Assembly (NCBI GenBank): GCA_024181965.1
Contig: BQXS01009981.1
Span: 1-33,052, forward strand
Direction: 5' to 3'
Origin: Aduncisulcus paluster
Lineage: Eukaryota
Length of the DNA stretch: 33,052 nt
Each line of letters opens with the position of its first letter. Within the stretch, counting starts at the first letter, position 1. The translations under genes were made by a program, and so were the position numbers. Below, piece after piece: positions 1 through 30,814 of the stretch. Below the pieces are notes generated by a model, which was given only the letters and a program-made list of their open reading frames with translations, ran no database searches and was not told the origin of the DNA.

Positions 1-20
1 AGGGTAAAATTGAAAAAGCC

Positions 21-6425: not shown

Positions 6426-9400
6426 TCATGATAGATAATGTGATTTCCTGATCGATTTTTGCATTTCTGAATCACCAAAAATAGTTCCAGCCGATCCAAA
6501 ATGTTTCCATTTTTGTTCTTTGATAACATCATCAATAGATGGACATGCAAAATCTTCTCCAATCGTTGGAAGTAAAAATTTGATAGGTTGTACTATTTCG
6601 CGAGCATCATGCACACTCATGCGTTTCTTATGGTCATGCAAAGTGAGACCTGTGAACACTTCATTAAACACTTTATGAAGAGGTTCGTACTTACCATCAT
6701 CAATGGTCAATAGAGAGTCGAAGAGAGGGGATGAACTGGAAATATGAGGATACAAATTACTTTTCATGAGTTCAATTAGTTTGCCCATGAATTTCACAGG
6801 GTTGTCTATTCCTCTCATAACAGGCAGCTGAAGGAAAGGATCACAACACAAGAACAAAGCAAGGATTGACATTCCAAGAGAATAGCCATCACTAATTTGA
6901 CTCTGAATTCCATGTCGAAGAGTTTCATAGGAATTGTACACAAGAGTTCCACAAATGGAACGTTTGGACTCTGAGTTGGAGTGGGAAGAAGAAGACAAGA
7001 AAGAAGAAGAGGAAGAGAAAGAGGAAGAAGGTGTAACAAAACTCTTGGAAGACGTTGAAGATGAGACGGAATCCTGAATCTGCACGAAGCCAAGATCAGC
7101 GAGAACAACCGTACATTCTCCATTTTTTGGGTCAACACGAACAAGGAAGTTGTCAGGTTTCACATCTCGATGGACAAGCTTTGGTTTAGCCGTGAACACA
7201 TCATCAAGACATTCGATCATTCCAAGAGAATAGCCATCACTAATTTGACTCTGAATTCCATGTCGAAGAGTTTCATAGGAATTGTACACAAGAGTTCCAC
7301 AAATGGAACGTTTGGACTCTGAGTTGGAGTGGGAAGAAGAAGACAAGAAAGAAGAAGAGGAAGAGAAAGAGGAAGAAGGTGTAACAAAACTCTTGGAAGA
7401 CGTTGAAGATGAGACGGAATCCTGAATCTGCACGAAGCCAAGATCAGCGAGAACAACCGTACATTCTCCATTTTTTGGGTCAACACGAACAAGGAAGTTG
7501 TCAGGTTTCACATCTCGATGGACAAGCTTTGGTTTAGCCGTGAACACATCATCAAGACATTCGATCATTCCAACACATAATGAACACACTTTCACAGGGT
7601 TCAGTATCATGGGATCGAAGCGATCATGATCATCACTCTCAAAACCAGAACCAGAACTTGAGTCTAAGTCTGAGGGTTCACTATCATCAACAACACTCAC
7701 ATACTTGCCATCAGCACACCAACGCTTGGCAAACGCACTCACACTGCCTCCAACACAAAACTCCATCAGGAAGCCATAAACACCTTTCATATCGCAATCA
7801 AGGAGGTCAAGGATATACAGAGGACGTGGGATACGGTTAAAACATTTGGGATTCGTAAACAATTTGAGTTGCACTTTAAACTCCTTCCGACACCATTTCA
7901 CGACCTTTTCGTCAGCACTCTGAAGCATTTTCTTCAAAACGCATGGGAAAGGAATATCATCAACCTTAACAAGAAGAACCTCTCCGAACCCACCACTGCC
8001 AATGATGCACTGAGAAGTCAGCGTGGATGCAGATGTCAGGGTTAGCGAGTCGAACTTGGGTTTGTATTTGACATTATCATGATTGGATTTCTCTTTATCC
8101 TTCCATTTCTGTTTGTAGTCTTTTGGCACGGAATCTTTATCAATTTTGACTTCTTCTTTTACAAGAGGTTGTGGAATCAGAGGTTTGACATCTTTTCCAA
8201 CAGACAGTACCTTGAGGGAACTGGAAGAATCAGGAGCATGGAGATGGAAAGAGGTAGTAATATCATCATCTTGAATGAAAACAAGAGAGTTAATGTGGAA
8301 ACATCGACTATTCCCCTTTGACCATCCTCCGTACCATAATCCATTCCCTTCAATTTCACACAAAACAACATTCGGTAAATCAATAGGAAGGAAGTGCCAT
8401 TCATATATATATTTAGGTTTTATGAATTCATACTTCTTAAATGTCTTTTTACCATCAGAATTTGTGAAAGTGATGAGAAGAGAAGGTATCCATTCATCCT
8501 CACTCACATATGAATAAACACCTTTCATAGAACAAGGTGATGTGAAAGGGATGGAAAGATGGGATAAGTATACATCACCTTCCCCTTTTAACATTTTTTG
8601 TGCATCTAAACTCCGGTCATAATACTCAGATTCCCTACTATACGAAGCATCCTTGCACTTAACCATTGATAATGACGGAGCTACAAGCTTTGGATCGTCA
8701 CGTGAAATGGGAATAGAATCTCTACCTTCAGAATCTTCATTTCCTTTCTTAAAAAATTCTGATTTCACGACTAGAACTTCAGACCATAGCTTCTCTTTGG
8801 CTTCCCGAGATATAATTTCCTCAGGAGTTTCTTCTCTACCAATGAAAACAAGGGATTCAATCTTGATTATTGGACTCGGCTTCTGATCCCACCTTCCTTT
8901 CCCTTCAATCTCACATAATACAACATTATTCAAATCAATAGGGAGGAAATACCATTCATATTTATGTTTAGATTTTGGGAATTCATATTTCTTGAATATT
9001 TTTGAACCATTAAAATCAGTGAACGTGATTAGAATAGTGGGTGAACTCCAATCTTTATAAACACAAATATAAGCACCTTTAATTGGACTTGGCGATGGGA
9101 AAGGAATGGAAAAGTTGGAAAAAGAAACAAAACTTTCTCCTTTCAACATTTTTTGTGCGTTTAAACTTCGATCATACAAAGTAGATTCCTTACTATACCA
9201 ATTATCCTTACACTTCACCAATGAGAATGAAGGGTCTAAAACTCTTGAATCATCACGTGAAATAGGAATAAACTCTCTGCCTCCCTCCTTAACAAACTCT
9301 GTTTTCATAATTGGAGCTTCATACCATTGTTTTTCTTTGGTTTCGCGAGCTATGATTTCTTCAAGGGTTTCTTCCCGAAAGAAAACAAGGGAGAGAATTT

Positions 9401-10964
9401 GAAATTGTTCTTTTTTCCTGCCTTTTCCAGTAATTTCACACAAAACCACATCAGATAGATCAACAGGAAGGAAATACCAAAAATAACAACCACGACTAAA
9501 TACAGAAAATTCGAACCTTCTGGATATTTTCTCACCTTTTGAAGAGGTGAGAGTCAATATGAGATGTGATGGAGGTGAACCATGCTCAGAATAATCTCCT
9601 AAGGCAATATAAACCCCTTTCATTGGAGATGATGAAGGGAAAGGAATGTAGAGTTTTGTAAAAAATCCATAATTTCGTAAATTCTTAATATTTCTCCACT
9701 CACCATCCATCATTTCTCGTGCTTCATAACTTTGATCGTAACCGGGTTGTTTTAGAAACATTATTTTCTTGGTTTCATCCTTAGCTTTGATTGAGGCACA
9801 CTCTGGACTCTTAATATTGGGGGCATCTCGGGGAATTGGACAGCAACTAAAATCTCCTTGATGCAAAAACTCAGGTTTCACAACTAAAGGTGAAGATGAT
9901 GAAACTTTCTTGAAGGAACGAGGAAGAGAGGTGGGAATATCATCATCTCTGATGAAAACAAGGGTGTTCATATGGAAATCTCGACATTTTGAAATCCAAC
10001 TTTCTTTGCCTTCAATCTCACACAAAATTACGTCTGCCAAATCAATGGGGAGGAAATACCATTCATAGGTATAGCTCTTTCCGAGAATTGTGAATTCAAA
10101 CTTTTTGGATGTCTTCTTATCATTCGAATCTGTGAAAGTGAAGAAAAGAGAGGGTGAACAATACTTCTCTTTTACACAGATATAAGCACCTTTCATGGGA
10201 CTGGGAGATGGGAAAGGAATGGAAAGATGGGTTAAGTACACTTCACTTTCCCCTTCTAACATTTTCTGAGCTTCTGAACTCTTATCGTAATACTCAGAAT
10301 GCTTACTCACCGAATCATTTTTGCACTTAACGATTGAGAATGAAGGATCCAAAATTCTTGGATCATCCCGTGGAATGGGCATATGTTCTCTACCGCCTTC
10401 ATTACAAAACTCTGGTTTTACAACTGGGACTTCAGACCATAATTTCTCTCTGGCTTCACGAGCTATGATTTCTTCAGGAGTTTCGTCTCTACTTATGAAA
10501 ACAAGAGAGTCGATTTTAAAATATTCTTCCTCTCTTCCTTTCCCTATAATCTCACACAGAACAACATCGGGAAGATCAATAGGAAGGAAATACCAATCAA
10601 CATTTTCAAACTCGTGTTTTTTGGATATTTTATCTTTCTTTGAGGTTGTGAAAGTGAAGATAAGATGTGAAGGAGGGTCGTAAGAATTTATACAAATGTA
10701 GGCACCTTTAATTGGGGAGGATGAAGGGAAAGGAATACTGATGTCGGTAAATTTTGCACTATGCCACTCCCCTTTCATCATTTTTTGGGCTGAATCACTT
10801 TGGTCGTACCAATAACTACCTTCTTCTTCGCTTGCATTTCTTGCCCTGATAGTCCATTTTGGACTCTTAATATTGGGGGAATCTCTAGGAATTGGACAGA
10901 AATGACAATCTCCCCTTCGAATAAACTCTGGATTAACGATTTGAATAGCTGTGGATGAACTCAT
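6426..10964 (-). CDS. Ser/Thr protein kinase with five N-terminal tandem copies of an unnamed domain (A-B-A-B-B); no signal peptide or TM helix seen
   Basis: Kinase motifs IGSGGFGEV, VLKKM, alphaC Glu (KEFK), HRDVKPDN, DLG (for DFG), GTLVYNSYE (for APE), SDGYSLG. The N-terminal ~900 aa is made of five homologous units (PIPRD...IPFPSxSPMKGAYICV...KKYEF...WYFLPIDL..VVLCEI.GKG...SLVF). Confidence 0.92.
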   Translation of the reverse strand: MSSSTAIQIVNPEFIRRGDCHFCPIPRDSPNIKSPKWTIRARNASEEEGSYWYDQSDSAQKMMKGEWHSAKFTDISIPFPSSSPIKGAYICINSYDPPSHLIFTFTTSKKDKISKKHEFENVDWYFLPIDLPDVVLCEIIGKGREEEYFKIDSLVFISRDETPEEIIAREAREKLWSEVPVVKPEFCNEGGREHMPIPRDDPRILDPSFSIVKCKNDSVSKHSEYYDKSSEAQKMLEGESEVYLTHLSIPFPSPSPMKGAYICVKEKYCSPSLFFTFTDSNDKKTSKKFEFTILGKSYTYEWYFLPIDLADVILCEIEGKESWISKCRDFHMNTLVFIRDDDIPTSLPRSFKKVSSSSPLVVKPEFLHQGDFSCCPIPRDAPNIKSPECASIKAKDETKKIMFLKQPGYDQSYEAREMMDGEWRNIKNLRNYGFFTKLYIPFPSSSPMKGVYIALGDYSEHGSPPSHLILTLTSSKGEKISRRFEFSVFSRGCYFWYFLPVDLSDVVLCEITGKGRKKEQFQILSLVFFREETLEEIIARETKEKQWYEAPIMKTEFVKEGGREFIPISRDDSRVLDPSFSLVKCKDNWYSKESTLYDRSLNAQKMLKGESFVSFSNFSIPFPSPSPIKGAYICVYKDWSSPTILITFTDFNGSKIFKKYEFPKSKHKYEWYFLPIDLNNVVLCEIEGKGRWDQKPSPIIKIESLVFIGREETPEEIISREAKEKLWSEVLVVKSEFFKKGNEDSEGRDSIPISRDDPKLVAPSLSMVKCKDASYSRESEYYDRSLDAQKMLKGEGDVYLSHLSIPFTSPCSMKGVYSYVSEDEWIPSLLITFTNSDGKKTFKKYEFIKPKYIYEWHFLPIDLPNVVLCEIEGNGLWYGGWSKGNSRCFHINSLVFIQDDDITTSFHLHAPDSSSSLKVLSVGKDVKPLIPQPLVKEEVKIDKDSVPKDYKQKWKDKEKSNHDNVKYKPKFDSLTLTSASTLTSQCIIGSGGFGEVLLVKVDDIPFPCVLKKMLQSADEKVVKWCRKEFKVQLKLFTNPKCFNRIPRPLYILDLLDCDMKGVYGFLMEFCVGGSVSAFAKRWCADGKYVSVVDDSEPSDLDSSSGSGFESDDHDRFDPMILNPVKVCSLCVGMIECLDDVFTAKPKLVHRDVKPDNFLVRVDPKNGECTVVLADLGFVQIQDSVSSSTSSKSFVTPSSSFSSSSSFLSSSSHSNSESKRSICGTLVYNSYETLRHGIQSQISDGYSLGMIECLDDVFTAKPKLVHRDVKPDNFLVRVDPKNGECTVVLADLGFVQIQDSVSSSTSSKSFVTPSSSFSSSSSFLSSSSHSNSESKRSICGTLVYNSYETLRHGIQSQISDGYSLGMSILALFLCCDPFLQLPVMRGIDNPVKFMGKLIELMKSNLYPHISSSSPLFDSLLTIDDGKYEPLHKVFNEVFTGLTLHDHKKRMSVHDAREIVQPIKFLLPTIGEDFACPSIDDVIKEQKWKHFGSAGTIFGDSEMQKSIRKSHYLS
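6870..7573. repeat. Perfect 348-bp tandem duplication inside the kinase domain (116 aa, in frame)
   Basis: 6870-7217 matches 7218-7565 with no mismatch seen. CATTCCAA occurs at 6870, 7218 and 7566 (8-bp junction microhomology). Confidence 0.95.
8270..10950 (-). repeat. Array of five diverged ~500-600-bp domain-coding units
   Basis: Approximate units: A 10950-10490, B 10420-9945, A 9880-9375, B 9310-8835, B 8770-8270. Three of the four junctions use an EETxEEIIxRExxEKxW linker. Confidence 0.9.
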
Positions 10965-11743: not shown

Positions 11744-14700
11744 CTATTTCTTCCAAGTTTTGTATCGAAGAGGATGAAGAAGACGAGAATATTTCTCTGA
11801 GATAGTCTTTCCCTTTGAAAAAATGTTACTCGATTTGGAAGGGTCCAGGGCAGCCTTTTGGAGATTTCCAATGGCCAAATAAAGCTTTAAGCCCAGTTCA
11901 CCCTCTTTTCCAATGGGAGCCATTTTAACTTGACGTGCAAATCCAGATTCATCAACTTCAATTTCCAATATTCGGCGTATTTCCTCAAATGCAGGCGGTT
12001 TTTGCTTCAATAATACCTTATCGCACCGTTTTTTAACCATTTTAGTCGGAGCAAATACTTCAAATAAAGTGATTCCGAAAGCAAAGAAATCCTTATCAAT
12101 CAAACCAGATAATTCTGGAGGTGGAGAATATTTCTCAGAATAGACTCTATCTGGGGTTGGAATATCTTTAGTTACATCAGTAGGCATAGGTCTTCTCCGT
12201 GTGTCTGATCTTGATGCGTATTGTTGAGGCGTTGAGATGGTTTTTGTGCCCTCTGGTCTCTCTTGAGAATGGTCCAAGTCAGCAATAACGATGCAAAGAG
12301 CAGGGTCAGTTGGAGATTTGTCCATAGTACGTTCAGAACCATCAATTTTAACACGCAAAGTCGACTTTGTAACGAGAAAATTGGCAGGTTTTATGTCACC
12401 ATGATTTTTGGATGCTTTGTGGAGAACATAGCAACAATCCATTATTGCGAAACAAATCTGAACAAGCACATAACTCAAAGGAAATGAAATGTAGTATGGT
12501 TTCCGCCCAGGAGTGACAAGACGGTGATTATCATGCAAATACTTTATGAATCTAGTTAAATCTGAGTCACACAATTCCATTAATAGATAAATCGAGCGAT
12601 CTAATGATTCGTCTAAGCAATCCGAGATGAAAACGGCATAAATTCTAGGAACAACTCGAATTTTGGTGCTTGTTGTACCGCATGAATAATCTTGGATTTT
12701 TGAGCATGTTGTGCAATAATTCAAACACGTATGAAACCCTTTCTCAATTTCTTGATGCAAAAGTTGAACTTTCTCAATAAATCTATCATGATTTTGACTA
12801 CACCCTTTCAAGCTAGTAAGTAGCTCATCTCGGGCTCTTGAAGTAAATTCCTTCAAAGCATATGTGTTTGAACTCCCCCATATGGATTTTGGGGAGGAAG
12901 AGGAAGAAGAGGAAGAGGAAGCGGAAGAGGAAGCGGAGGAAGAAGAAGGGGAAGAGGAAGAGGAAGAAGGGGAAATACCATCAGTAAGATGGGAATAAAT
13001 ATCACATTTGCGGAATAGTTTAGGATCAGGCCTGTATATTATCGGGTTAAATTTCTTAGTCTTTGAAACTCCATATGGATTCCACCATTTCCACATGTTA
13101 ATGCGAAGTGAGGACCATTGTTTCGATGAATTGAATAATTTGGCCTTTTCAATCTTGATTTTGTATACTTTTCCAAATCCTCCGGAACCAATGCATCGTT
13201 CTGATGTTTTTGAACAGAAACATGGAAGCGTAGATTTAATTGATTTTGGCATGAAAATAATGGGGTTTGGTTGACGTGTCAATTCTTCTTCTTTTGGATA
13301 TCCTTTCGATATGATAGACGGGGATTTAGGGAGATCAAACCACGGAGAAGGAATATCAATGTGAAAACAATATGGTGAAAATGATGGAGACTCACAAGCT
13401 GATCTCTTTTTCTTTCTCATTAATGCTGTACTTGGCTTGATTGATGTAGAAAGTTGTGCAGAAAAAAAGACTTCACCGTCAGAAAGGTGGGGATGTAAAG
13501 GAGTGGTGTCAGTATGGTCAGATGAAGAGGTGGATAACAAGTTGTAAGATGAACAAGGGAGCTCGATTGATTCTTGGATTTTACGCTTCGGTTTCGAAGA
13601 AGAGAGAGAAGAGGAAGAAGAAGAGGAGGTGGAATCAAAAATGATAGAAGACGTGGAAGACGAAGATTTCAATGAAGATTTAGACTTTCTTGCCTTTAAA
13701 TTCTTTTTTCTCGTTTGGTCAATCAACTTTTTTTCTGCAAGAATCAATTCTTCCCCTTTCTTTTCCAGTTGGTCCAACATTGTGACAAGTAAATCACACA
13801 TTCCATGCAAATTATCGATGATATCTTTATGATCAGCAATGGATGATGGGGTTTTCTTGGACGGAGAATCCCATTTGACACATATAAGTCTATTAGGAAG
13901 CTTCTCCAAAAATGATCTGATATTTTCAAGCTCAGAAACAAACACAGATTCATAGATTGACAATGATTTAAATATCATGGATATTTGTGTCTTTTCTTGT
14001 TCGGTTTTTTCTCCCCGTTTCCTGCTTTTTTTGATCAAATCAAATCGATATGTGATATCATTGTGGATTACCTGAACAATGCCAATCAACATGGAGAGGG
14101 CTGACCCTAATTTGATGGAACTCCCACTGAAATAGGAGAGAGAAAAGGGTAATTTGCTTGGATTGGATGGTATATCAGTTTTTTTCTTCCTTTTCTCTTT
14201 CTTCTTTTTTGAGGAAGAAGTCGAAGAAGAAGAAATGGTTGAAGAACTATCAAAATAATGAGAAATAATGGCTGGAAACTGACATTTGTAGCCATAAATA
14301 TCTTTTAATAGACCTTTTAGGGTCAGTAAATCATTATAACTAAGAAAATCATGATCCATACTTTTCAGAGTGCAAGAAAATGTTGAAGTTGGTTTTGAAT
14401 ATTCCTTCAAAAGCACCAACTTTTTTAATATCATTTTAATATGTGAAATAAATGGGAATTTATAACTATAATCACCATTTTCCTTATTAGATATCTTAGA
14501 ATCGCATTTCTTCGATTTCTTTGATTTTGGCATAGTTGTGGATCCACCTTCACTACTATAATCTCCTGATTGTGACATTTCAGAGCTCTTCCAGGCATTT
14601 GATGGATGACTTTGACAATGATATCTATCATAATCATGTGAACAATCATCGTCCACCAATCGTGACGAGTCATCATCGCCATAATAAAGACGATCAAATC

Positions 14701-16615
14701 CTTTGGAGTGACAATCATAGATTTGTGCTCCAAATCCCTTTTCTAATTCTTCGCCGGGAGTATAATAATAATGATAATAATATCTGCAACTCATGGCCAA
14801 TAGAAAAGCATGAGTGAAATACAGAGTTCTTGAGCATACAATAGATTCGAGAGACATGAATAATTCCAGATTGGCCTTTGACGTTTCTAACAGAAGTTTA
14901 ACCAGAGCCGATGGAAAACGATATGAAATGGCTGGATCATAATAATATGGCAAATTAATCCCAAAAGATGACGGGATCATGCAGAACTCCGTTCTCTTGC
15001 TGGGTTTCAACTCAGATTTGGGTATTTTTTTGCTCTTTAAAGAACTCGTACCTGCAAGAACTCCTGCGTTAATCAACATTTGATGATCTTGGGATGGATC
15101 TATCAATTTAATCTCAATGGTCTTCATAGAGGAAGAAGGAGAGGAAGAAGGAGAGGAAGAGGAGATAAAAGAAGATGAAGACAAAGATGAGGACAAAGAA
15201 CTACAAGAAAAGGGAGAAGGAGATCTCGAAGACGAACTTTTCTTGCTATTTGAAGGAGATACATGGACATCAACGAGGCCATCGATAATATGCCAGTCAA
15301 ATGGGGGATAAAATACATCACGCGGTTTCCCACCAAATTCTTTTTTTAATTTGCTGAGCTTTGGATAGGATTGTAATAAAGGGCCAACAGAGCACATAAT
15401 CATATCTCCAAGGAATTCAAGAGTACAGACAATAGGATCTTTGGTATTAAAAATCTCATTGCTTGATTTCGAGGATATTGCAGGCAAAATGAAATTAATA
15501 AACAAAGATTCACACGTGGTAAAAAATGAGGGATCATCAAGAATCGATAATTCACTACGAAATGAATATAGAACTGAGTTTACAGCCAGAATAAGTGTAG
15601 GGTCTTTCTTTCCAGTGAAAATGGTGGGGCGAGTATTATTAAGGTATTTGAGAATTGGTGGTACATATCGAAAAATTGAACGGAATAAGGAATTGTCAAC
15701 AGATAACAATGAAATTAAAAATAGAAAGTTTGGAAATATTCTGAAACCGGATTTATCAGTGGTTGTTTTGCTCATTTTGTAACAATATTTCTCAATAAAT
15801 CGGCTGGCTGACTTTGCAGACAAGAGTTTCTCCCAAATTTCTAAATATCTTCCGAATCGGTGCACAAAGATACAGAGTATTCCAAAGAGCATATTCGCTA
15901 TTTCCATTGTTTGAGTTGAGCATAGATCTGATATTGATGAGAACAAAGAGATAATTCCATCCAAATATCCAGAATATACCCGCTGGTGGAAAGAGTATTC
16001 TGGAATATAGAATAATGAACGAATAATGATTTCAACTGAAATTTGAATGCGAGTTAAGGAAGTAGAGGGAAATTTATCTAAAAAATCATTAGAAATAGTC
16101 TCAGATACGAAAGAACCGAATACAATAGAGTCAATCCACAAATCAATTTGTTTGGGTTGCAAAATAGATTTTGGAAACTCATGAATCGATGTGAGTGAGG
16201 ACGAAACTTTAAAGGATTTATATTGTACTGGAAGGAAGCGAGAATAATGATTCCACAATATGGGATTTGAAGTCAACATTTCTATAAGAATAGATTGAGG
16301 AAGTGGGGTCTCCATTAATTTGGATTCAGAAAAAATAGTTGATAATAATTCCATCAAAATGAGTTTTATATTCTTTTCCGGTTTGCAATCATCACATGTG
16401 ACGATAATTGTTATGACAGCTAATAATTCATTAAAATTATTTTCAATAAATAATTTTATATTATCACTATCGAAAGTCTCAATTGAATCTGTTAATTTCG
16501 ATACTAAATCGGAGAAACACCAAGGAAGTGAGGAAGGAATGTAAGAGGAGAGGGAGGAAGAATGATTCGTAGTAAATTTCAATATTTCAATTAAATCTTC
16601 TTTAATTCGATCCAT
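11744..16615 (-). CDS. Large protein with a C-terminal divergent (non-RD) protein kinase domain
   Basis: 1623-aa ORF with IGSGGFGKVYK (~13190), YALKEF (~12860), LLMELCDSDL, HGDIKPANFLV (~12400), IADLD and DFFAFGITLFE. The N-terminal ~1100 aa is helical and Ser-rich with no family I recognise. Confidence 0.88.
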   Translation of the reverse strand: MDRIKEDLIEILKFTTNHSSSLSSYIPSSLPWCFSDLVSKLTDSIETFDSDNIKLFIENNFNELLAVITIIVTCDDCKPEKNIKLILMELLSTIFSESKLMETPLPQSILIEMLTSNPILWNHYSRFLPVQYKSFKVSSSLTSIHEFPKSILQPKQIDLWIDSIVFGSFVSETISNDFLDKFPSTSLTRIQISVEIIIRSLFYIPEYSFHQRVYSGYLDGIISLFSSISDLCSTQTMEIANMLFGILCIFVHRFGRYLEIWEKLLSAKSASRFIEKYCYKMSKTTTDKSGFRIFPNFLFLISLLSVDNSLFRSIFRYVPPILKYLNNTRPTIFTGKKDPTLILAVNSVLYSFRSELSILDDPSFFTTCESLFINFILPAISSKSSNEIFNTKDPIVCTLEFLGDMIMCSVGPLLQSYPKLSKLKKEFGGKPRDVFYPPFDWHIIDGLVDVHVSPSNSKKSSSSRSPSPFSCSSLSSSLSSSSFISSSSPSSSPSSSMKTIEIKLIDPSQDHQMLINAGVLAGTSSLKSKKIPKSELKPSKRTEFCMIPSSFGINLPYYYDPAISYRFPSALVKLLLETSKANLELFMSLESIVCSRTLYFTHAFLLAMSCRYYYHYYYTPGEELEKGFGAQIYDCHSKGFDRLYYGDDDSSRLVDDDCSHDYDRYHCQSHPSNAWKSSEMSQSGDYSSEGGSTTMPKSKKSKKCDSKISNKENGDYSYKFPFISHIKMILKKLVLLKEYSKPTSTFSCTLKSMDHDFLSYNDLLTLKGLLKDIYGYKCQFPAIISHYFDSSSTISSSSTSSSKKKKEKRKKKTDIPSNPSKLPFSLSYFSGSSIKLGSALSMLIGIVQVIHNDITYRFDLIKKSRKRGEKTEQEKTQISMIFKSLSIYESVFVSELENIRSFLEKLPNRLICVKWDSPSKKTPSSIADHKDIIDNLHGMCDLLVTMLDQLEKKGEELILAEKKLIDQTRKKNLKARKSKSSLKSSSSTSSIIFDSTSSSSSSSLSSSKPKRKIQESIELPCSSYNLLSTSSSDHTDTTPLHPHLSDGEVFFSAQLSTSIKPSTALMRKKKRSACESPSFSPYCFHIDIPSPWFDLPKSPSIISKGYPKEEELTRQPNPIIFMPKSIKSTLPCFCSKTSERCIGSGGFGKVYKIKIEKAKLFNSSKQWSSLRINMWKWWNPYGVSKTKKFNPIIYRPDPKLFRKCDIYSHLTDGISPSSSSSSPSSSSASSSASSSSSSSSSPKSIWGSSNTYALKEFTSRARDELLTSLKGCSQNHDRFIEKVQLLHQEIEKGFHTCLNYCTTCSKIQDYSCGTTSTKIRVVPRIYAVFISDCLDESLDRSIYLLMELCDSDLTRFIKYLHDNHRLVTPGRKPYYISFPLSYVLVQICFAIMDCCYVLHKASKNHGDIKPANFLVTKSTLRVKIDGSERTMDKSPTDPALCIVIADLDHSQERPEGTKTISTPQQYASRSDTRRRPMPTDVTKDIPTPDRVYSEKYSPPPELSGLIDKDFFAFGITLFEVFAPTKMVKKRCDKVLLKQKPPAFEEIRRILEIEVDESGFARQVKMAPIGKEGELGLKLYLAIGNLQKAALDPSKSSNIFSKGKTISEKYSRLLHPLRYKTWKK

Positions 16616-17394
16616 TTTGAATTAATTTCTGTATTTTTCTTTTTGGATCGCGACAAAAAAATAAAAATGTTACAAAGGATTATAAATATTATTTTAAATG
16701 CAAAATTATCAGCATAGTGGATCATACTTTTTGATATTGTTGTAATCATCGTTCTATATGAATCATAAGGTCCGTACTCACAATGTGAGTCTCACATTTG
16801 GCTTGATTTTGGCACAACTCAAAAATTTAAAATCATTTGATTCTTAATTTTTTGTATCGGGTGTAATTTATTGATTCTTTTTTGTGTTGTATATTCACAG
16901 AAATCGTATATGACCATCAATGCAATGAGGGCATAGAAATGTAATTTGTAAAGAATAATCCTTGTGGAGTCGGTTGGGAGTTATTTCAGGTAACTGAGAA
17001 AACACCCCTGCTCTAGTTCCAAAATGGATTCCATTCTGATGCCTTCAAGCAGATCAAGTTGATCCTGGTGTATGTCTCCCCAACCTGACGTTTCGGAATA
17101 TATGAATCGGTAAAAACCGCATTTTCAGGAGGGAGGTTCTAATAGGTGGCTCTTCAAACCCTCCTTTTGACCTTCTTCAATGAGTATGTATTTTTGACAA
17201 AATTATTTTGCAACCCCCTGTGTTTTTTTGCCTTTGGAGGCCGTAATATATGGTGGTGCTACTTTGTGGTTGAACCACAGTGATTCTCACCTTAAAACAC
17301 AAAAAAGAAATAAAACGAAAGAGAGTGAAGATCTATTCAATTTTAGAGTACTTTATTACACCATGTAAACAATACTGGAATGCTATTGATGTGT

Positions 17395-17910
17395 TCATTC
17401 ATCTCCTCTGTCAACTTCAAGTTTTCTGATAAACTCTTCAAATGTTTGAGCCACAACAATCTTTTCATAATCACCCTCTTGATCAACGTTAACAACTTGA
17501 GGTTCTTCGCCAGCTTCACAGCCTTCATAATCCAACATGAACATGTCATGTCCAGCAGACGGGGAATCACAGATATAGACACCAGTGGCAGGATATTCCC
17601 ATCCAATAACCATACGATTGTGAGATCTAACGAGAGAATATGTTTTGGATTCATCTCCAAGACAAAAAAATCCTGTGATTTGTAAAGGATATTCTTCATC
17701 CTCCAAATAAATACAATTATAGTGGGGGGTACCACCGTTGTGAAGTTTCATAAATTCAATGTATGACGCAGGAAATTTATAACCGAGTTCATCTTCTATT
17801 TGCTTGATGAGTTTATCTGATGGGGTTTGAGCAGATACATACGCCCTCAATGCATAATCACTTTCATCCCAAAATCCTTCAAAACTATAGTCGGCAAAAA
17901 TGCTTGTCAT
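17395..17910 (-). CDS. SMI1/KNR4 (SUKH superfamily) protein, bacterial immunity-protein type
   Basis: SUKH signature PSDKLIKQIEDELGYKFPASYIEFMKLHNGG, plus ICDSPSAGHDMFMLDY, EPQVVNVDQEGDY and the C-terminal VAQTFEEFIRKL. Confidence 0.92.
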   Translation of the reverse strand: MTSIFADYSFEGFWDESDYALRAYVSAQTPSDKLIKQIEDELGYKFPASYIEFMKLHNGGTPHYNCIYLEDEEYPLQITGFFCLGDESKTYSLVRSHNRMVIGWEYPATGVYICDSPSAGHDMFMLDYEGCEAGEEPQVVNVDQEGDYEKIVVAQTFEEFIRKLEVDRGDE

Positions 17911-18572
17911 TTTGTGATGTCAAGAAAATGGGAAATTGAAGATATTTGTGGAATAAGATAAATAAGAATAATAAAAATTAAAGATTCAGATAATGGTTGG
18001 AAAATCTGGAAAGGTATCAAAGAAATATCCGTTGAAATCATCCAATTTCAATCCAAGAATAGAATCGAAATTCTGAAAACACAAACTATGGATATGTCAA
18101 GGTACCCATGACATTTATGGGATATAGATGCAACTTAACATCATGAAGGAGAACAGAAGATATTTTATAATTCGATATGTTGGCAAAACTGGGACTTATG
18201 AGACGATTTTGTGTCGGGAGTGGATTCACAAGGATGACATACAACATATGAAACAAATAAAAAGTCAACACATATTTATTTATATATTATGCAATATCAC
18301 TTTCTGTGATTGTCAGACGGGGGTTGTGAGTTTGGTCGTCGTCTTTTTCTGCGTAAATAACATATTATATATTTACTGTATGTCATATATTTTACTACTG
18401 ATACATTCAGACATATTTTAATTGGTGACTTCTAATTATACCCATGGTTGTGCTGTGTGGTCGTTTCTTGTTCGTTTTGTTCGTTTTGTCTATGTCTCGG
18501 ACTGTTCTCTTTGAAATTCGCAATTATTCAGTCTATTTTTATTTTTTTAGATAATATTCCTTCTCTATTCAA

Positions 18573-19679
18573 ATGAGTTTATCCACAGATGCTGTTATTC
18601 AAACTGTGGAACCCGAGTTTGTCCAGGAAGGAGATTGCCTTTGCTGTCCAGTTCCTGGAGATGCCCCCAATATCAAGAGTGCAGACCTTCCAACTATCAC
18701 TGCAATAGATGGAACCAAGAAAGAAGGTGATGAAGAGTACGATCAGAGTTATAATGCACAAGAGATGATAAAAGGAGAGTTGAATTGTGGGCATTTTACC
18801 GATATCTCCATTCCTTTCTCTTCATCTTCCCCAATGAAAGGTGTCTATATCTGTCTTTTTGTTTCTAATTATTCTTCACCTCCATCACACCTTATCTTCA
18901 CTCTTACATCTTCAAAGCGTGAGAAAACATCCAAGAAATTTGAATTTCCTGAATTTGAAGGTGATCATTGGTATTTCCTTCCTGTTGATCTCCCTGATGT
19001 TGTTCTGTGTGAGATTACAGGGAGAGGAAGAGAGGAAGAGTCTTTTGAAATCGAATCCCTTGTTTTCATTAGTAGAGAAGAATCGCCTGAAGAAATTATA
19101 TTTCATGAATCCAGAGAGAAACTATGGTCTGAAGCTCCAGTTGTAAAACCAGAGTTTGTTAAGAAAGGAGATAATGAATCTAAAGGTAGAGATTCTATTC
19201 CCATTCCACGAGATGATCCAAAGATTGTTGATCTTTCATTCTCAATGGTTAAGTGCAAGGATGATTCGTATAGTAAGGAATCTGAGTATTATGATCAGAG
19301 TTCAGATGCACAAAGAATGTTAAAAGGGGAATGTTATTTACAATTATCCCATCTTTCCATCCCTTTCCCATCACCTAGTCCTATGAAAGGTGCTTATATC
19401 TGTGTTCATAAGAATCGTAGTTCACCTTGTCTCTTCTTCACTTTCACAGATTGTGATGGCAAGAAGACATTCAAGAAGTATGAATTCACAAGACATAAAT
19501 ATTGGTATGAATGGCACTTCCTTCCTATTGATTTGCCGAATGTTGTATTGTGTGAGATTGAAGGGAAAGGGATGTGGAAAGAGAAGAACAGTCGAAGTTT
19601 CGGAGTCTACTCCCTTGTATTTACGATGCCTAAGGAAATTATTGAAGCTGAACGATTATCTCTACTTCCATGGAAATAA
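18573..19679 (+). CDS. Standalone two-domain (A-B) member of the unnamed family found on the upstream kinase (copy 1)
   Basis: 368-aa ATG..TAA ORF collinear with kinase units 1-2; ends ERLSLLPWK. Confidence 0.9.
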   Translation: MSLSTDAVIQTVEPEFVQEGDCLCCPVPGDAPNIKSADLPTITAIDGTKKEGDEEYDQSYNAQEMIKGELNCGHFTDISIPFSSSSPMKGVYICLFVSNYSSPPSHLIFTLTSSKREKTSKKFEFPEFEGDHWYFLPVDLPDVVLCEITGRGREEESFEIESLVFISREESPEEIIFHESREKLWSEAPVVKPEFVKKGDNESKGRDSIPIPRDDPKIVDLSFSMVKCKDDSYSKESEYYDQSSDAQRMLKGECYLQLSHLSIPFPSPSPMKGAYICVHKNRSSPCLFFTFTDCDGKKTFKKYEFTRHKYWYEWHFLPIDLPNVVLCEIEGKGMWKEKNSRSFGVYSLVFTMPKEIIEAERLSLLPWK

Positions 19680-19768
19680 TCCAAGGATAATGCTATTGTC
19701 TGTAAAGAAGTCAGTCTTCTCAGAAATAATCGTTTGACAGATGTCTGATATGAATCACATCATAATGA
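19680..19768 (+). other. Conserved 3' tail shared by the standalone family genes
   Basis: Its reverse complement matches 29592-29680 with about 3 mismatches, and 32159-32321 with insertions. Core GACATCTGTCAAACGATTATTTCTGAGAAGACTGAC is identical in all three. Confidence 0.85.
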
Positions 19769-19794: not shown

Positions 19795-21753
19795 TTATTG
19801 CAATTCTTTCCTCGAATGATTGCTATGAGAATCATCACAATCAGATATCTGTCCGCTAACTTCGGTGTCATCCTCCTCTATCTGTGGTGATACCTTGACA
19901 TTATCCAGTCTGACAGCTCTTGCATGATCACTTTCGAACAAAATCACTCTCCATTGCTGATTCAAACATAAGATAATTGATAAAATAATTGCAAGTGAAA
20001 GAATAAACCCAAACGACAGCATTGCCACCCCATAATTCCATTTCTTAGCGATAGCACCACCAATCATTGGAATAGTAGCCAGACAGAGATTTGTCATGGC
20101 AACTTGAACCCCAAAACAGACATTGGACAGTGATCGGTTGGTCATTACCCTATCAATTGCGTTTGTACAAACAGCTGGAATGGTACTATAACTCACTCCA
20201 ATAAGAAGGAAACATAAATGGAATAAATTCGTGAGTTTAGATGGGTTGGAGTGTATATTTTTGCAAAAAGATGATTCCAAGGAGTTTGAGGAAAGAAAAT
20301 TCAGTCCAATAAACCCCACAAACCCTATAAACACTGATATTGCGCATAATATCGGCAGATTTCCAATTCTACTGACTCCAATCGACAGGATAGGTCCAGC
20401 AATCAATGATGACATTGAGCACCAAGATACAATATCGCTTGCTTGACTTTCCGAGAATGTTTCAGATGTATTGTATTGAGTGGAAGTAAGACCCAGCGAT
20501 TCCCATACTTCAAGAATATACTGCACTCCGCTACTATTGACACCTCCAATACAACACCCATACGAGATACCAATGCAAGCAGAGAGAAGGAGAAGAGGAA
20601 GGAGGAAGGATCGAAGATCTGATGACTGTGGTGCTGCATGGGAACCGAAATTAGAAATTCTTCGTTCGTTGGATTCATAGTTATCATTGTTATCGATATT
20701 GGATGGAATATCAATTGGACCTTCTTGAATATCTATCTCACCCTTCATGTCAACTTTAGAATCAGAAGATAGACACGGCTCATAACCTTCCATCTGTGTC
20801 CTTACAATATCACCCATTTCAATAGAAATTGAGGAGTGATGGATCTTGGGAATACCTAGAGATGATTGAGACAATAGAGTTGATTCTTGGATAGAAGAAA
20901 CATGTTTGTCCTTCGGAGATGTTATTGTTCTTGCTGCTGTTGAAGCTAATGATCGTGTTGTTTGTTCTACGATGAGAGAAGAACGAATCGGGGCTGACAA
21001 AACGTCTGTTGAAATCAACGATATTGTATCATCAGAGAAGGGTCTATAGTTATGTTGTTGTTTAAAAGAGGCACTCGAAGAAGAGGACAATGGAGTAGAG
21101 CGGACACAGGCACATTGGGGATCATTCGCTTCGAATGGACGGAAGAGGGAGATAAAAACACACACAACACATTCTAGTGAGCATACAATTACTACAGGAA
21201 GTTGTGAAACACATGCAGTTGAACACGAGGGCCGTATATCAGATGACATGCCAGAGGGACATTGAGGAGTCTGTTCTGCAAACCATGGGGCAATTCGAAA
21301 GGCGGAAAAGGAAGCCAACGATGCGATGGCCGTCGAAATGGTATAAATTATTCCCTGATATTCTTTGGGAGAGAATTTACAGATATAGCGAGTCTGACAA
21401 ACATAAATTGATTCGGAACAAAATCCAAAGAGGAGCTTACCAATAAAAAACTGCATATAAGATAAGGAGGAAACAAGAATAAAAGACACTGAAGAGCACC
21501 AAATTGTGCATAAAATTAATAATAATTGAGTTCCATATTTATCAGCAAAAAAGCCACCAAAAAGAGGACAAATTATATTTGGAACATAACTAATGGAATA
21601 TAACGAAGCCAATCGATTCTCATTGATGTTATATTCATCTTCAAGATATGGGCTGATCGCTCCGGTCGAATCATAAGTAAAAGTTATGCCAATTGGTAAT
21701 AAAAGAACAAGAACAATCAGAGTCCATTGTTTTATCGATGAAATTGATTCCAT
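19795..21753 (-). CDS. Major facilitator superfamily transporter (MFSD1-like) with a long central cytoplasmic loop
   Basis: 652 aa; two bundles of hydrophobic segments separated by a ~180-aa polar loop. MFS motif A GGFFADKYG, with LYSISYVPNIICPLFGG and GKLLFGFCSES resembling MFSD1. Confidence 0.85.
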   Translation of the reverse strand: MESISSIKQWTLIVLVLLLPIGITFTYDSTGAISPYLEDEYNINENRLASLYSISYVPNIICPLFGGFFADKYGTQLLLILCTIWCSSVSFILVSSLSYMQFFIGKLLFGFCSESIYVCQTRYICKFSPKEYQGIIYTISTAIASLASFSAFRIAPWFAEQTPQCPSGMSSDIRPSCSTACVSQLPVVIVCSLECVVCVFISLFRPFEANDPQCACVRSTPLSSSSSASFKQQHNYRPFSDDTISLISTDVLSAPIRSSLIVEQTTRSLASTAARTITSPKDKHVSSIQESTLLSQSSLGIPKIHHSSISIEMGDIVRTQMEGYEPCLSSDSKVDMKGEIDIQEGPIDIPSNIDNNDNYESNERRISNFGSHAAPQSSDLRSFLLPLLLLSACIGISYGCCIGGVNSSGVQYILEVWESLGLTSTQYNTSETFSESQASDIVSWCSMSSLIAGPILSIGVSRIGNLPILCAISVFIGFVGFIGLNFLSSNSLESSFCKNIHSNPSKLTNLFHLCFLLIGVSYSTIPAVCTNAIDRVMTNRSLSNVCFGVQVAMTNLCLATIPMIGGAIAKKWNYGVAMLSFGFILSLAIILSIILCLNQQWRVILFESDHARAVRLDNVKVSPQIEEDDTEVSGQISDCDDSHSNHSRKELQ

Positions 21754-27031: not shown

Positions 27032-29202
27032 CTACGTCATATCTTGCAAACAATATACTGTTCCATCTTCATTTCTACTCTTGTCGTCAAAAGCCTTGAC
27101 ATCACATGCACACTCAGAGAAATTGACACTGACAACAGTGCATCCATCATCAGGCATGTAATAGATAGATTCATCAGCGAATGTACACACAAAATAGAAA
27201 CCAAGGGGCATTCTTGTGAGGTAATTAAAGCCCCGTTCCTGTTGCATGAATGTTGTAGTGAACATTTCATCCAAAAAGGCCACACTTAGGGTATACGCAA
27301 GCATTTCCCACTCAGTAAGGGTTACACCAGCACATAAAACCTCAGGATCTCGAACAAGAACAGAATCAGTGTTAAAATTATCAGTGTTAGTATCAGAATC
27401 TACAAGCTGTTGTTGGTTGGGTTCGATGCATGATGATATCTTCTTTGCAGTAACAGATTCAACAGTTTGGAGGAAATTGATGTATGCATGGTCACTCCAC
27501 ATGATTCCAAGGGTAGCTAGGTCAATTGTGAGTCCAACCGATGCCACAGAATCGCCAGAATCGACTTGGTATAAGCTTAATACAATTTCCATATCATCAT
27601 AAGCGAGATCCATACCATCAAGTCTGGTAGAAATATCAGGAACGACCGGAACACCATCAATAGTCTGGAAAGTGAAGCCAATGTCAATGTAACAGTTTGA
27701 ACAGAGGGAATAAAGGTCAGGAATAATGGTCATCCAGAAATGAGAAGTAAAAATAGGTGATAAATCGGAAGGAGGGTTGTCAATATCAATGCCTAAGTTG
27801 TTCCGAATAAGATACTGGGAACTGTAACCTCCAGAATAATTGCCATCAGAGTCAAAGCATCCATCACGAGTGCTAATGCACGCGACATTAGTAAATGTTC
27901 CTTTTAAATCAGACCAAGACGCATTTGAATTGTGAAGACTATTGTAGAAAATGCTATGGACGGAAGAATCAGAAATAGTGAAAGACAACTCAGAACTGAA
28001 CATGTCATATGGTAATGAAGAAGGTGGATTGTAAGTAGGATCAACAGAGTCCTCACGAATCTTATCATTGGCAGTTTTACCGAAACAACCGACAGCAAAA
28101 GTCGGGAGAGTGAAATACGAGGGTCCCACATAAGCAGCTTGGGCAAATCCAAGATTAAAGACGTTGTACGTGTCAAAGTGATATGAAGAATTCAACCCCA
28201 AAACGTCATGAATGCCCTGAGAGGAGATATACTCGGCGATGGCATTACTCAAGGTAGAAGAAAGAAAAGGAATAAGAGACGATTGGAGGACATCTTTAAT
28301 CATTTCCAGAATTGGATTAACATCTCCAATGAAGTCAATATGGATGTCATCAAGCTCAAGTTTCAACGTATCTATATTAATGTCGGGTAGATAACCACAG
28401 GCTTCTTTACCGCATGAGACGTCTGAATAATCTGGAGATATACCAATAGAAGCTGAAGCAAATGCACCAAGCTCTCCAACTGTCAATCTGGCAGCTCCCA
28501 CAAGAGAAGAATACGGATAGGTCAGAAGCTTGATATTATAATCAACACTGGCAACAATATTGGCCCCTGAGGCATTCATATTGATTTGATTTGGAGGAAG
28601 ATTTGAAACTAAAACGTCTTCATCAGGAANNNNNNNNNNNNNNNNNNNNCATCAAGCTCAAGTTTCAACGTATCTATATTAATGTCGGGTAGATAACCAC
28701 AGGCTTCTTTACCGCATGAGACGTCTGAATAATCTGGAGATATACCAATAGAAGCTGAAGCAAATGCACCAAGCTCTCCAACTGTCAATCTGGCAGCTCC
28801 CACAAGAGAAGAATACGGATAGGTCAGAAGCTTGATATTATAATCAACACTGGCAACAATATTGGCCCCTGAGGCATTCATATTGATTTGATTTGGAGGA
28901 AGATTTGAAACTAAAACGTCTTCATCAGGAAAAAAAGCAAAGGATTCAACCGTAAAATCTGTAAGAGAGATGCTTGCTTTACCGACACCGAAATCCACAT
29001 TTGTAGAGAAATCAGGAATTTGTAGCGAATTCATTAAAGCATCAAAATATGGTTGAAGATCTTTAAAAATAATATCATACATTGCGTCAATTGAAAAAGT
29101 TACCATAAGGCCAGTTTGACCGCCATAATTCCCATCATCGCCTGCAAAGAAAGAACAAAAAACAAAAGAAACAAAAGAAATTAAAAAAATCGATAATATC
29201 AT
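27032..29202 (-). CDS. Secreted BPI/LBP/CETP-like (TULIP) lipid-binding protein; a single ~622-aa gene split by an assembly artefact
   Basis: Signal-peptide-like MILSIFLISFVSFVFC followed by a BPI N-terminal pattern (GLMVTFSIDAMYD...SLQIPDFS...GKASISLTDFTVESF...IHIDFIGDVNPILEMIKDVLQ). Removing the 302-nt duplication plus gap joins ORFs 28609-29202 and 27032-28579 in frame (1869 nt). Confidence 0.78.
28348..28931. repeat. 282-bp identical duplication flanking a 20-N gap (artefact causing an apparent frameshift)
   Basis: 28348-28629 equals 28650-28931; Ns at 28630-28649. The 302-nt offset is not a multiple of 3. Confidence 0.9.
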
Positions 29203-29680: not shown

Positions 29681-30814
29681 TTATTTCCATGGAAGTAGAG
29701 ATAATCGTTCAGCTTCAATAATTTCCTCGGGCATAGTAAATACAAGGGAGAGGATTTCGAAATATCGACTTTTCTTCTCCCTCCACATTCCTTTCCCTTC
29801 AATTTCACACAATACAACATTACACAAATCAATAGGAAGGAAATACCATTCAAATATATGTTCAGGTTCTGTGAATTCATACTTCTTGAATGTCTTCTTA
29901 CCATCACAATCAGTGAAAGTGAAGAGAAGAGAGGATGAACTATTATACCCATCCACACAGATATAAGCACCTTTCATTGGACTAGGTGATGCGAAAGGGA
30001 TGGAAAGATGGGATAATTGTAAATAACATTCCCCTTTTAACATTTTTTGTGCTTCTGAACTCTTATCATAGTCCTCAGATTCCTTACTAAATCTAGCATT
30101 CTTGCACTTAACCATTGAGAATGAAGGATCTACAAGATGTGGATCATCACGTGGAATGGGAATAGATTCTCTACCTTGAGATTCTCCATATCCTTCCTTA
30201 ACAAACACAGATTTTACAACAGGAGTTTCAGCCCAGAGTTTCTCTTTGGCTACACGAGCTTTGACTTCTTCATGAGTTTCTTCTCTAATGAAAAAAAGTG
30301 AAACGATTTTAAAACACTCTTCCTTTCTCCCTTTCCCTGTAATCTCACACAAAACAACATCAGAGAGAGCAACAGGCAAAAAGAACCAAAAAAAATCTTC
30401 AAAGTCTGGAAAATCATATTTTTTGGATATTTTTTCACTTTTTGATGAAATAAAAGTGAAGATAAGATGGGATGGAGGGGAATCAGAAAGATGAAAGAAC
30501 TTAAGATGGATATAAACACCTTGAATGGGGCAAGAATGAGAAAAAGGAACATGTATGTGAGTAAAAGATCCATCTGGATTCTCTCCTTGCAGCATATCTC
30601 GTGCATCAGAACTCTGGTTGTATCCGCGGGCACCTTTCCTGATACAAATATTCGTTGCTTCAATCTTTGGAAAGACTGGGGTCGTAATATTGGAAGAATC
30701 CCGAGGAATTGGGTTACAGTACCAAGGATTTTTGTTGGTTATTACAGGTTCCACGCTTTGAACAATGATATTACGACATTCTTCAAGAAACTCGGAGGTT
30801 TTCAATGAACACAT
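29681..30814 (-). CDS. Standalone two-domain (A-B) family member (copy 2), 377 aa
   Basis: Homologous along its length to 18573-19679 and ends ERLSLLPWK. The track start at 30826 is GTG; the first ATG is at 30814. Confidence 0.9.
   Translation of the reverse strand: MCSLKTSEFLEECRNIIVQSVEPVITNKNPWYCNPIPRDSSNITTPVFPKIEATNICIRKGARGYNQSSDARDMLQGENPDGSFTHIHVPFSHSCPIQGVYIHLKFFHLSDSPPSHLIFTFISSKSEKISKKYDFPDFEDFFWFFLPVALSDVVLCEITGKGRKEECFKIVSLFFIREETHEEVKARVAKEKLWAETPVVKSVFVKEGYGESQGRESIPIPRDDPHLVDPSFSMVKCKNARFSKESEDYDKSSEAQKMLKGECYLQLSHLSIPFASPSPMKGAYICVDGYNSSSSLLFTFTDCDGKKTFKKYEFTEPEHIFEWYFLPIDLCNVVLCEIEGKGMWREKKSRYFEILSLVFTMPEEIIEAERLSLLPWK

What the first reader, a model, noticed from the sequence alone, without database searches (positions are those of the whole stretch)
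17395..17910. Bacterial-type SMI1/KNR4 (SUKH) toxin-immunity gene embedded in a protist chromosome
Established knowledge: SUKH proteins are immunity proteins of bacterial polymorphic nuclease-toxin systems. The motifs FWDESDYA, ICDSPSAGHD..MLDY..C and EPQVV.VDQE.DY match, from recall, a bacterial subfamily rather than fungal Smi1/Knr4. Seen in sequence: the gene is intronless, has no toxin partner or Shine-Dalgarno, has an A-rich start context like its neighbours (acaaaATG vs tcaaaATG, ttcaaATG), similar base composition, and no N gap separating it from eukaryotic genes. Inference: a domesticated horizontal transfer that may protect a bacterivore from prey-delivered toxins.
Basis: partly seen in the sequence, partly recalled or inferred. 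Interest (0 to 1): 0.75.

Follow-up and report, generated by a model that had tools for sequence, protein, structure and literature searches.

The report
Bacterial toxin-immunity gene family in protist
A bacteria-eating flagellate carries several copies of a gene taken from bacteria, where it blocks DNA-cutting toxins; the copies differ mainly on the predicted toxin-binding face, so the protist may use them as decoys against bacterial toxins, but this has not been tested.

Summary
The ORF is real: 171 aa, SUKH-1/Smi1 domain, about 50-59% identical to a bacterial subfamily, only 13-17% to yeast Knr4. It is integrated, not contamination: a second contig holds a 99% copy among host genes, read depth splits into about three single-copy loci, and a diverged paralogue shows purifying selection. 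A third copy, missing from the assembly, is the one seen in transcript data; the window's own copy is not shown expressed. Bacterial relatives are mostly orphan or polyimmunity proteins; 1 of 44 loci has a toxin next door, a WHH nuclease. The window protein is predicted to bind it (0.88, best control 0.25), though a like complex is solved. Seven of 10 differences between copies lie on that predicted face. Immunity-gene transfer to protists is already noted in print; function remains untested.

The parts
17395..17910 (-). SUKH-1 (Smi1/Knr4-family) gene, 171 aa, 'copy A'
   Evidence: AlphaFold model pLDDT 94; best structural matches 2ICG Z 13.7, YobK 2PRV Z 13.6
17545..17568 (-). Codons 115-122 (D-S-P-S-A-G-H-D loop): core of the predicted nuclease-binding face; two of the ten differences from the transcribed copy
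17596..17616 (-). Codons 99-105: helix end with four clustered substitutions against the transcribed copy (99, 101, 102, 103); 99 and 103-105 are predicted contacts
17464..17490 (-). Codons 141-149 (V-D-Q-E hairpin): predicted contacts, with two substitutions against the transcribed copy
17249..19760 (.). 2.5-kb duplicated segment (SUKH gene, its upstream region, neighbouring family gene) shared with contig C11211:627-3187; 92% overall, 3 base differences in the SUKH coding sequence; the two loci part at 17249
18573..19679 (+). Divergently transcribed neighbour: 368-aa member of a very large host-specific family, two internal repeats about 550 bases apart
   Evidence: 1250 first-look candidates, 111 scored; no Pfam or PDB match
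17005..17274 (.). Host interspersed repeat downstream of the gene; the duplication breakpoint lies in it
   Evidence: 72-87% matches on many contigs
18068..18300 (.). Host interspersed repeat upstream of the gene
   Evidence: 73-93% matches on many contigs
11744..16615 (-). Downstream neighbour: 1623-aa serine-rich kinase-like host gene, at single-copy depth

Best explanation
A bacterial orphan-immunity gene of the SUKH-1 group was transferred into the nuclear genome of this bacterivorous fornicate (source name Aduncisulcus paluster) or an ancestor, kept under selection and duplicated. SHOWN: integration, copy number, bacterial affinity, purifying selection on the scaffold. INFERRED: the protein works as in bacteria, as a cytosolic one-to-one decoy whose loops 99-105, 115-122 and 141-149 plug the active-site cleft of WHH/HNH-type DNase toxins that reach the cell from prey or attacking bacteria. 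The transcribed copy keeps the consensus face; the window copy is a young duplicate whose face has changed at 7 positions, and the old paralogue has rebuilt that face, which would widen or shift the range of toxins covered. The gene history is about 0.9 likely; the figure below is for history plus decoy function of the family.
For: Integration. Bacterial subfamily; far from Knr4/FBXO3. Relatives are immunity proteins by context: 9 of 24 long host ORFs scanned are fused to SuFu, Imm33, Imm51 or Imm68; 1 of 44 loci has an RHS-HINT-WHH toxin directly upstream; P0083 joins the domain to a WHH fragment. SUKH is a listed immunity family for Tox-WHH (PMC3482391, passages). Predicted complex: ipSAE 0.88, best of 3 controls 0.25, runs share at least 82% of contacts, partner pLDDT at least 91; the mark was reached by 51 of 78 solved and 2 of 108 mismatched pairs; toxin-side contacts include the WHH and HxG motifs. 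7 of 10 copy differences in 35 of 170 interface positions, p 7e-4 (0.006-0.05 if only 120-85 sites can vary). Window copy against old paralogue: dN/dS 0.23/1.16 off the interface, 1.54/0.86 on it. A contig with the third copy's alleles has depth 1219 in X2 against 13-25 for the kinase gene.
Against: No binding or protection has been measured. A WHH-immunity complex with the same fold is solved (8BD1, Z 8.6, 12% identity), so the pass may show likeness only, and the tool cannot tell which family member binds. The toxin is a stand-in from a cyanobacterium. Only 1 of 44 loci links the subfamily to a toxin. The window copy's own alleles are not seen in X2 over 17449-17728, and X2 has no cover at 17776-18009; X2 is RNA by guess only. 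Changes in the window copy mostly go from common to rare residues, which fits loss of constraint as well as new specificity; dN/dS between it and the third copy is about 0.7 (hand count), not above 1. The interface dN/dS rests on 28 codons beside indels. Known eukaryotic SUKH proteins were repurposed as adaptors (PMC3113570, passages). No evidence was found that WHH nucleases are delivered into protists.
Confidence: 0.5

Rival explanations
1. Repurposed scaffold: the transferred domain now binds host proteins (an adaptor, or a brake on a host nuclease), as Knr4, FBXO3 and PGs2 do, and no longer meets bacterial toxins.
For: Precedent in PMC3113570 (passages). The old paralogue has 4 of 27 consensus interface residues against 52 of 93 elsewhere, lower than any of 434 comparison rows, yet its scaffold is under purifying selection. 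Unnamed relatives carry WGR or BRCT domains and lysine-rich tails, which point to DNA-damage or nuclear roles.
Against: The transcribed copy keeps 20 of 27 and the window copy 17 of 27 consensus interface residues; no fused domain or targeting extension; predicted WHH complex. WGR fusion also occurs in a spirochaete protein (P0284).
Confidence: 0.25
2. The window copy is a passenger: it was duplicated together with the expanding neighbouring gene family, is weakly or not expressed, and its binding face is decaying; only the third copy matters. This can hold together with the best explanation for the family.
For: Duplicated segment includes the family gene and ends in a host repeat. Window alleles not seen in X2. 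Five changes are to residues found in at most 1% of 453 relatives. In the trees nearly all change lies on the window copy's branch.
Against: Frame intact in both duplicated loci; no amino-acid change in residues 1-60, 62-98 or 150-170 against the third copy, where neutral decay would scatter them; interface match still within the ordinary range (167 of 434 rows as low); an X2 contig of depth 47 with 1 difference covers 17249-17448.
Confidence: 0.2
3. On origin only: the gene was not taken from bacteria by this lineage alone, but acquired once in a common ancestor with Barthelona (or other metamonads), or passed between protists.
For: Named members in Barthelona sp. PCE (2.17-Mb contig) and Anaeramoeba flamelloides (562-kb contig), two EukProt and one MMETSP record. 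A short deletion before the xEW motif is shared with the Barthelona, MMETSP and one EukProt protein. AU does not reject Aduncisulcus+Barthelona (p 0.32-0.74), the wider deletion group (0.67-0.76) or all three metamonads (0.12-0.22).
Against: Identity is higher to unnamed metagenome and bacterial rows (56-59%) than to Barthelona (36%). Anaeramoeba's protein is 65% identical to Chryseobacterium. In the best tree Barthelona groups with three other rows (SH-aLRT 97), not with Aduncisulcus. A bacterial sister is not rejected either (p 0.31-0.43). Long branches attract.
Confidence: 0.35
4. Contaminant from the culture's food bacteria, mis-joined into a short-read scaffold.
For: The published draft genome of this species came from a culture with bacteria, by short reads (PMC9933649, part 1 of 2). 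No single contig of X1 or X2 spans the gene and both flanks.
Against: Two contigs with different downstream genes hold it among host genes; depth is about three times single-copy host depth, one allele set at 1317-1400 against 1209-1305 for the kinase gene; host repeats flank it; the paralogue lies on four other contigs beside unrelated host-type genes and forms one clade with it (98-99.6); no close bacterial match exists (best 59%).
Confidence: 0.03

Closest known systems
Bacterial SUKH-1 immunity proteins of polyimmunity loci and polyimmunity proteins (Zhang et al. 2011 PMC3113570; 2012 PMC3482391)
   Same: Same domain, about 50-59% identity to an unstudied subfamily spread over Bacteroidota, Bacillota, Pseudomonadota, Cyanobacteriota and others; no own toxin beside it; same predicted target class (WHH/HNH DNases).
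   Different: Nuclear gene of a eukaryote, host-like start context and composition, dispersed duplicates instead of an operon.
RhsPI, immunity protein of the WHH nuclease RhsP of Vibrio parahaemolyticus (PDB 8BD1; review PMC12826047, passages)
   Same: [quoted passage not shown]
   Different: 12% identity; a cognate partner encoded next to its toxin.
Eukaryotic SUKH lineages: yeast Smi1/Knr4, FBXO3, PGs2, plant At3g50340, fungal SUKH-4
   Same: Same superfamily and fold (Knr4 Z about 10, FBXO3 Z about 9); all derived from bacteria according to PMC3113570.
   Different: 9-18% identity; those are old, fused or repurposed adaptors and, for PGs2 and FBXO3, show no lineage-specific expansion; this one is stand-alone, close to bacteria and duplicated.
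Immunity genes transferred to microbial eukaryotes (at least 13 types, mostly fungi and amoeboid protists; PMC3482391, passages)
   Same: Same kind of event, and the same open question about function.
   Different: Not described for this subfamily or organism in the searches run; here there is a graded paralogue series and a candidate toxin class.

Membership tests
SUKH superfamily, SUKH-1/Smi1-like group | Match to PF09346 above the curated cut-off | tested here: met
   77.4 bits against 25.4
SUKH superfamily, SUKH-1/Smi1-like group | Four helices, a hairpin and a four-stranded meander | tested here: met
   model elements; Z 13.2-13.7 to 2ICG, 2PRV, 2PAG
Cognate immunity gene of a polymorphic toxin locus | Toxin gene directly upstream | tested here: not met
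   neighbours are a kinase-like gene and a host family gene
Cognate immunity gene of a polymorphic toxin locus | Toxin encoded elsewhere in the same genome | tested here: inconclusive
   WHH family and protein searches empty, but no control rang
Orphan immunity protein (works like) | Binds a non-self nuclease toxin | tested here: inconclusive
   prediction passes, 0.88 against 0.25, but a like complex is solved
Orphan immunity protein (works like) | Protects the cell from the toxin | not testable with these tools
   needs a rescue assay
Polyimmunity locus or protein | Tandem or fused immunity domains | tested here: not met
   single domain, dispersed copies; SuFu family not found in the genome, control rang in 2 of 14
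Old eukaryotic SUKH lineages (Knr4/FBXO3, PGs2) | Closer to these than to bacterial forms | tested here: not met
   50-59% to bacteria, 9-18% to Knr4 and FBXO3 structures; profile finds no Knr4 chain at E 1; no PGs2 sequence was in hand to compare
Domesticated horizontal transfer | Physically in the host genome | tested here: met
   no single read-level bridge of both flanks
Domesticated horizontal transfer | Under purifying selection after arrival | tested here: met
   dN/dS 0.35/1.09 against the old paralogue
Domesticated horizontal transfer | Expressed | tested here: inconclusive
   third copy in a transcriptome-derived EukProt record and in X2; window copy not shown
Domesticated horizontal transfer | Nested in a supported bacterial donor clade | tested here: inconclusive
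   placement unresolved in all trees, no root

The most novel reading that the evidence does not exclude
Bacterivorous protists have repeatedly captured the same bacterial anti-DNase immunity domain and use it as an innate decoy system against nuclease toxins from the bacteria they eat; in this flagellate the gene has become a small paralogue series diversifying at the toxin-binding face, a eukaryotic counterpart of bacterial orphan-immunity arrays, while other protists have tied the domain to DNA-damage sensors (WGR, BRCT).
Probability: 0.25. Interest if true: 0.8.

Novelty: new variant of a known kind. Interest (0 to 1): 0.52.

Why it matters
Zhang et al. 2012 noted at least 13 kinds of bacterial immunity genes in fungi and amoeboid protists and left open whether they still neutralise toxins or have new jobs. 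This locus makes that question testable: a small soluble protein, a candidate toxin class (WHH nucleases), and three natural versions with an intact, a partly changed and a rebuilt binding face. If it neutralises toxins, predators have borrowed their prey's antidotes, the mirror image of eukaryotes borrowing bacterial toxins (the latter from my own knowledge). If not, it shows the steps by which an immunity domain becomes a host adaptor like Knr4 or FBXO3.

Tried and rejected
No RNA holder on record was listed. No X1 or X2 cover at 20350-21500 and no X2 cover at 17776-18243: not interpreted. The third copy was not found in the assembly by DNA search. WHH in the own genome: not found, controls blank. 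Relatives of the L047 WHH domain: none in viral contigs or plasmids by blastn, so the toxin-immunity pairing could not be repeated. A WHH-type motif scan found 1 of 84 loci; a looser one gave 4 hits in 164 loci, only L047 convincing, the other three not checked by Pfam. Three plasmid neighbourhoods (3 of 27 records) show no annotated nuclease toxin; one is a polyimmunity-like run. Viral vector: 1 locus in viral contigs, 42% identity, no support. NCBIfam: no match. Atlas: bacterial Smi1 clusters for the window protein, no usable hit for the BRCT fusion. A hairpin at the duplication breakpoint is no better than shuffles (z -0.89); no Rfam match in 16600-18600; no terminal inverted repeats bounding the segment. 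Codon usage fits the host only slightly better than the best of 74 bacterial loci (-0.927 against -0.941): weak, not relied on. The first AU test was discarded because the free search had not converged. Bootstrap trees never finished (searches gave no answer), so supports are SH-aLRT only. Print searches: Aduncisulcus + horizontal gene transfer (5 papers), SUKH terms (65), SMI1 KNR4 + protist + gene transfer (0), immunity genes + protist terms (40), orphan immunity + amoeba terms (10), Aduncisulcus paluster + genome (25), Barthelona + Anaeramoeba + LGT (7): listings showed no description of this gene. Supplements of PMC3113570 and PMC3482391 were not read and may list this subfamily in eukaryotes. 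Earlier scan notes held nothing on this gene.

Full report
Observation. The minus-strand ORF 17395-17910 encodes 171 aa and matches Pfam SMI1_KNR4 (E 2e-21) and SUKH_6. The nearest named protein, 99% identical, is labelled Aduncisulcus paluster by its source, a free-living fornicate. The AlphaFold model (pLDDT 94) has the SUKH fold, closest to bacterial 2ICG, YobK and 2PAG (Z 13.2-13.7), then Knr4 (about 10), FBXO3 (about 9) and RhsPI (8.6).

Is it in the protist genome? Yes. A second contig, C11211, holds a copy with 3 base differences inside a shared 2.5-kb segment (17249-19760) and then runs into a different gene, an LCAT-domain protein. The segment includes a member of a host family with 1250 first-look candidates, and host repeats flank the gene. 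In run X1 the kinase gene lies at depth 1209-1305, while the SUKH gene at 17449-17490 lies at 3856, of which 1317 carries other alleles; a separate 2.7-kb contig at depth 1273 shares only the first 107 upstream bases. This fits three single-copy loci. No single contig spans the gene and both flanks, and depth sums are not a formal copy number. A diverged paralogue (about 52%) occurs on four more contigs, twice whole and otherwise in pieces at gaps or contig ends, so its copy number is unsure; neighbours there include an aminotransferase-V, an HATPase-domain and a ThiF gene.

The third copy. EukProt holds a transcript-derived protein, P0035, differing at 10 residues. The 14 base differences of a 310-base contig in run X2 give P0035's residue at all 9 changed codons in range. 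That contig has depth 1219 against 13-25 for the kinase gene, and another X2 contig ends at 16614, at the kinase start codon, as a transcript would; but X2 is RNA by guess only, has no cover over the gene's first 135 bases, and depth is a poor measure of expression. The window's own alleles are not seen in X2 over 17449-17728. The third copy was not found in the assembly.

Bacterial relatives. My ORF caller placed the match in 74 of 80; I dropped 30 as near-repeats and scanned the 85 direct neighbours of 44. One of 44, a cyanobacterial locus (L047), has an RHS-HINT-WHH nuclease directly upstream. Of 35 long host ORFs I scanned 24: 9 are fused to SuFu, Imm33, Imm51 or Imm68 and 5 more to DUF4253/4261/7832. 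In 80 metagenome loci, 62 have the domain in an open frame of 600 aa or more (highly redundant). So the donors are mostly orphan or polyimmunity proteins in the sense of PMC3482391 (passages), which lists SUKH as immunity for Tox-WHH; PMC3113570 (passages) reports WHH-SUKH neighbourhoods.

Predicted mechanism. The window protein folded with the L047 WHH domain scores 0.88 against a best control of 0.25 (3 controls); runs agree in at least 82% of contacts, partner pLDDT at least 91; the mark was reached by 51 of 78 solved and 2 of 108 mismatched pairs. Loops 99-105, 115-122 and 141-149 contact the toxin's WHH and HxG motifs, which by PMC3113570 form the active site. The toxin has no sequence match to a solved WHH chain, but 8BD1 is a solved WHH-immunity pair of the same fold (review PMC12826047, passages), so the pass may reflect likeness and does not say which copy binds.

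Evolution of the face. Seven of the 10 differences between window copy and P0035 lie among the 35 predicted contact residues (p 7e-4; 0.006-0.05 if only 120-85 sites can vary), two more beside them. At 7 of the 10 the window residue is rare in 453 relatives (0-9%), at 3 it is the commoner one. Still, the window copy keeps 17 of 27 consensus interface residues, within the ordinary range; P0035 keeps 20; the old paralogue keeps 4 of 27 against 52 of 93 elsewhere, lower than any of 434 comparison rows. Against that paralogue dN/dS is 0.23/1.16 off the interface and 1.54/0.86 on 28 interface codons (noisy, near indels). The scaffold is conserved and the face is not: either new specificity or release from toxin binding.

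Other eukaryotes and origin. A profile search named members in Barthelona sp. PCE and Anaeramoeba flamelloides on long contigs, two EukProt and one MMETSP record (120 of 1412 hits listed); Barthelonids are sister to Fornicata (PMC11316075, passages). I did not see their DNA context. About a dozen unnamed relatives look eukaryotic to me (lysine-rich tails, WGR or BRCT fusions); that label is my judgement. Trees: 196 rows (378 thinned at 75%), 79 rows and 50 chosen rows, 177 columns, no root, distant long-branch rows left out. The Aduncisulcus copies always form one clade (98-99.6), so duplication followed one gain; their sister is never supported above 83 and changes between trees. AU tests on briefly searched constrained trees reject neither Barthelona, the metamonads together, nor a Bacteroidota row as sister; one clade of all 18 eukaryote and eukaryote-like rows is rejected under C20 (p 0.009), not under LG+G4 (p 0.15). 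Anaeramoeba's protein is 65% identical to Chryseobacterium, which suggests a separate gain. Repeated capture is the simplest reading; a gain shared with Barthelona is open. No listed row was named from other fornicates, but most rows are unnamed, so this shows no absence.

Comparison and verdict. It is a member of SUKH-1, not of the Knr4/FBXO3 lineage, not a cognate immunity gene and not a polyimmunity locus; it may work like an orphan immunity protein. Sporadic transfers of SUKH and other immunity genes to eukaryotes are in print, with function left open (PMC3113570, PMC3482391; supplements not read). My print searches (listings only, apart from the papers named, PMC9161772 passages and PMC9933649 part 1 of 2) showed no account of this gene. 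What is new is a stand-alone, bacteria-like, duplicated version with a candidate toxin class and change focused on the binding face. Gene history about 0.9; decoy function of the family about 0.5; interest 0.52.

Noticed in passing
window 18573-19679, 29681-30814, 32322-32747 and the N-terminal part of 6426-10964: A host family of about 185-aa repeated domains with no Pfam or PDB match has at least 1250 candidate copies, is fused to kinases, and many copies start 500-700 bases from a contig end, which suggests a shared repeated upstream region or a mobile unit.
   Followed up: partly
P0115, P0175 (WGR-WGR-SUKH), P0120, P0101 (BRCT-SUKH), P0284 (WGR-SUKH, spirochaete): The same SUKH subfamily is fused to DNA-break-sensing domains in several unnamed, eukaryote-looking proteins; P0134, P0136 and P0165 end in CaaX-like motifs (motif recalled).
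   Followed up: partly
P0184 (Barthelona sp. PCE), P0306 (Anaeramoeba flamelloides): Two more anaerobic metamonads carry the subfamily on long contigs; the Anaeramoeba protein is 65% identical to Chryseobacterium.
   Followed up: partly
L020, L036, L070 and many gut metagenome loci: Polyimmunity proteins of about 2000 aa (Imm68, Imm33, TPR, SUKH, DUF4261, SuFu, DUF7832, DUF4253), often followed by UPF0167 and sometimes near DUF4241, RtcB or Tpt1: these DUFs may be further immunity domains.
   Followed up: no
window 22615, 23681, 28630; also C9707:2150 and C11211:13356: Each 20-N gap has the same stretch repeated on both sides, an assembly artefact that makes false internal duplications in ORFs (for example P0037); the kinase at 6426-10964 has a similar exact internal repeat without a gap.
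   Followed up: no
window 27032-29202 (-): Two overlapping ORF pieces with no Pfam match for the longer one; from recall the sequence resembles a BPI/LBP lipid-binding protein, which would be another antibacterial candidate.
   Followed up: no
window 1-2106: Also shared with C11211:11508-13907, so these two contigs share a second duplicated block.
   Followed up: no
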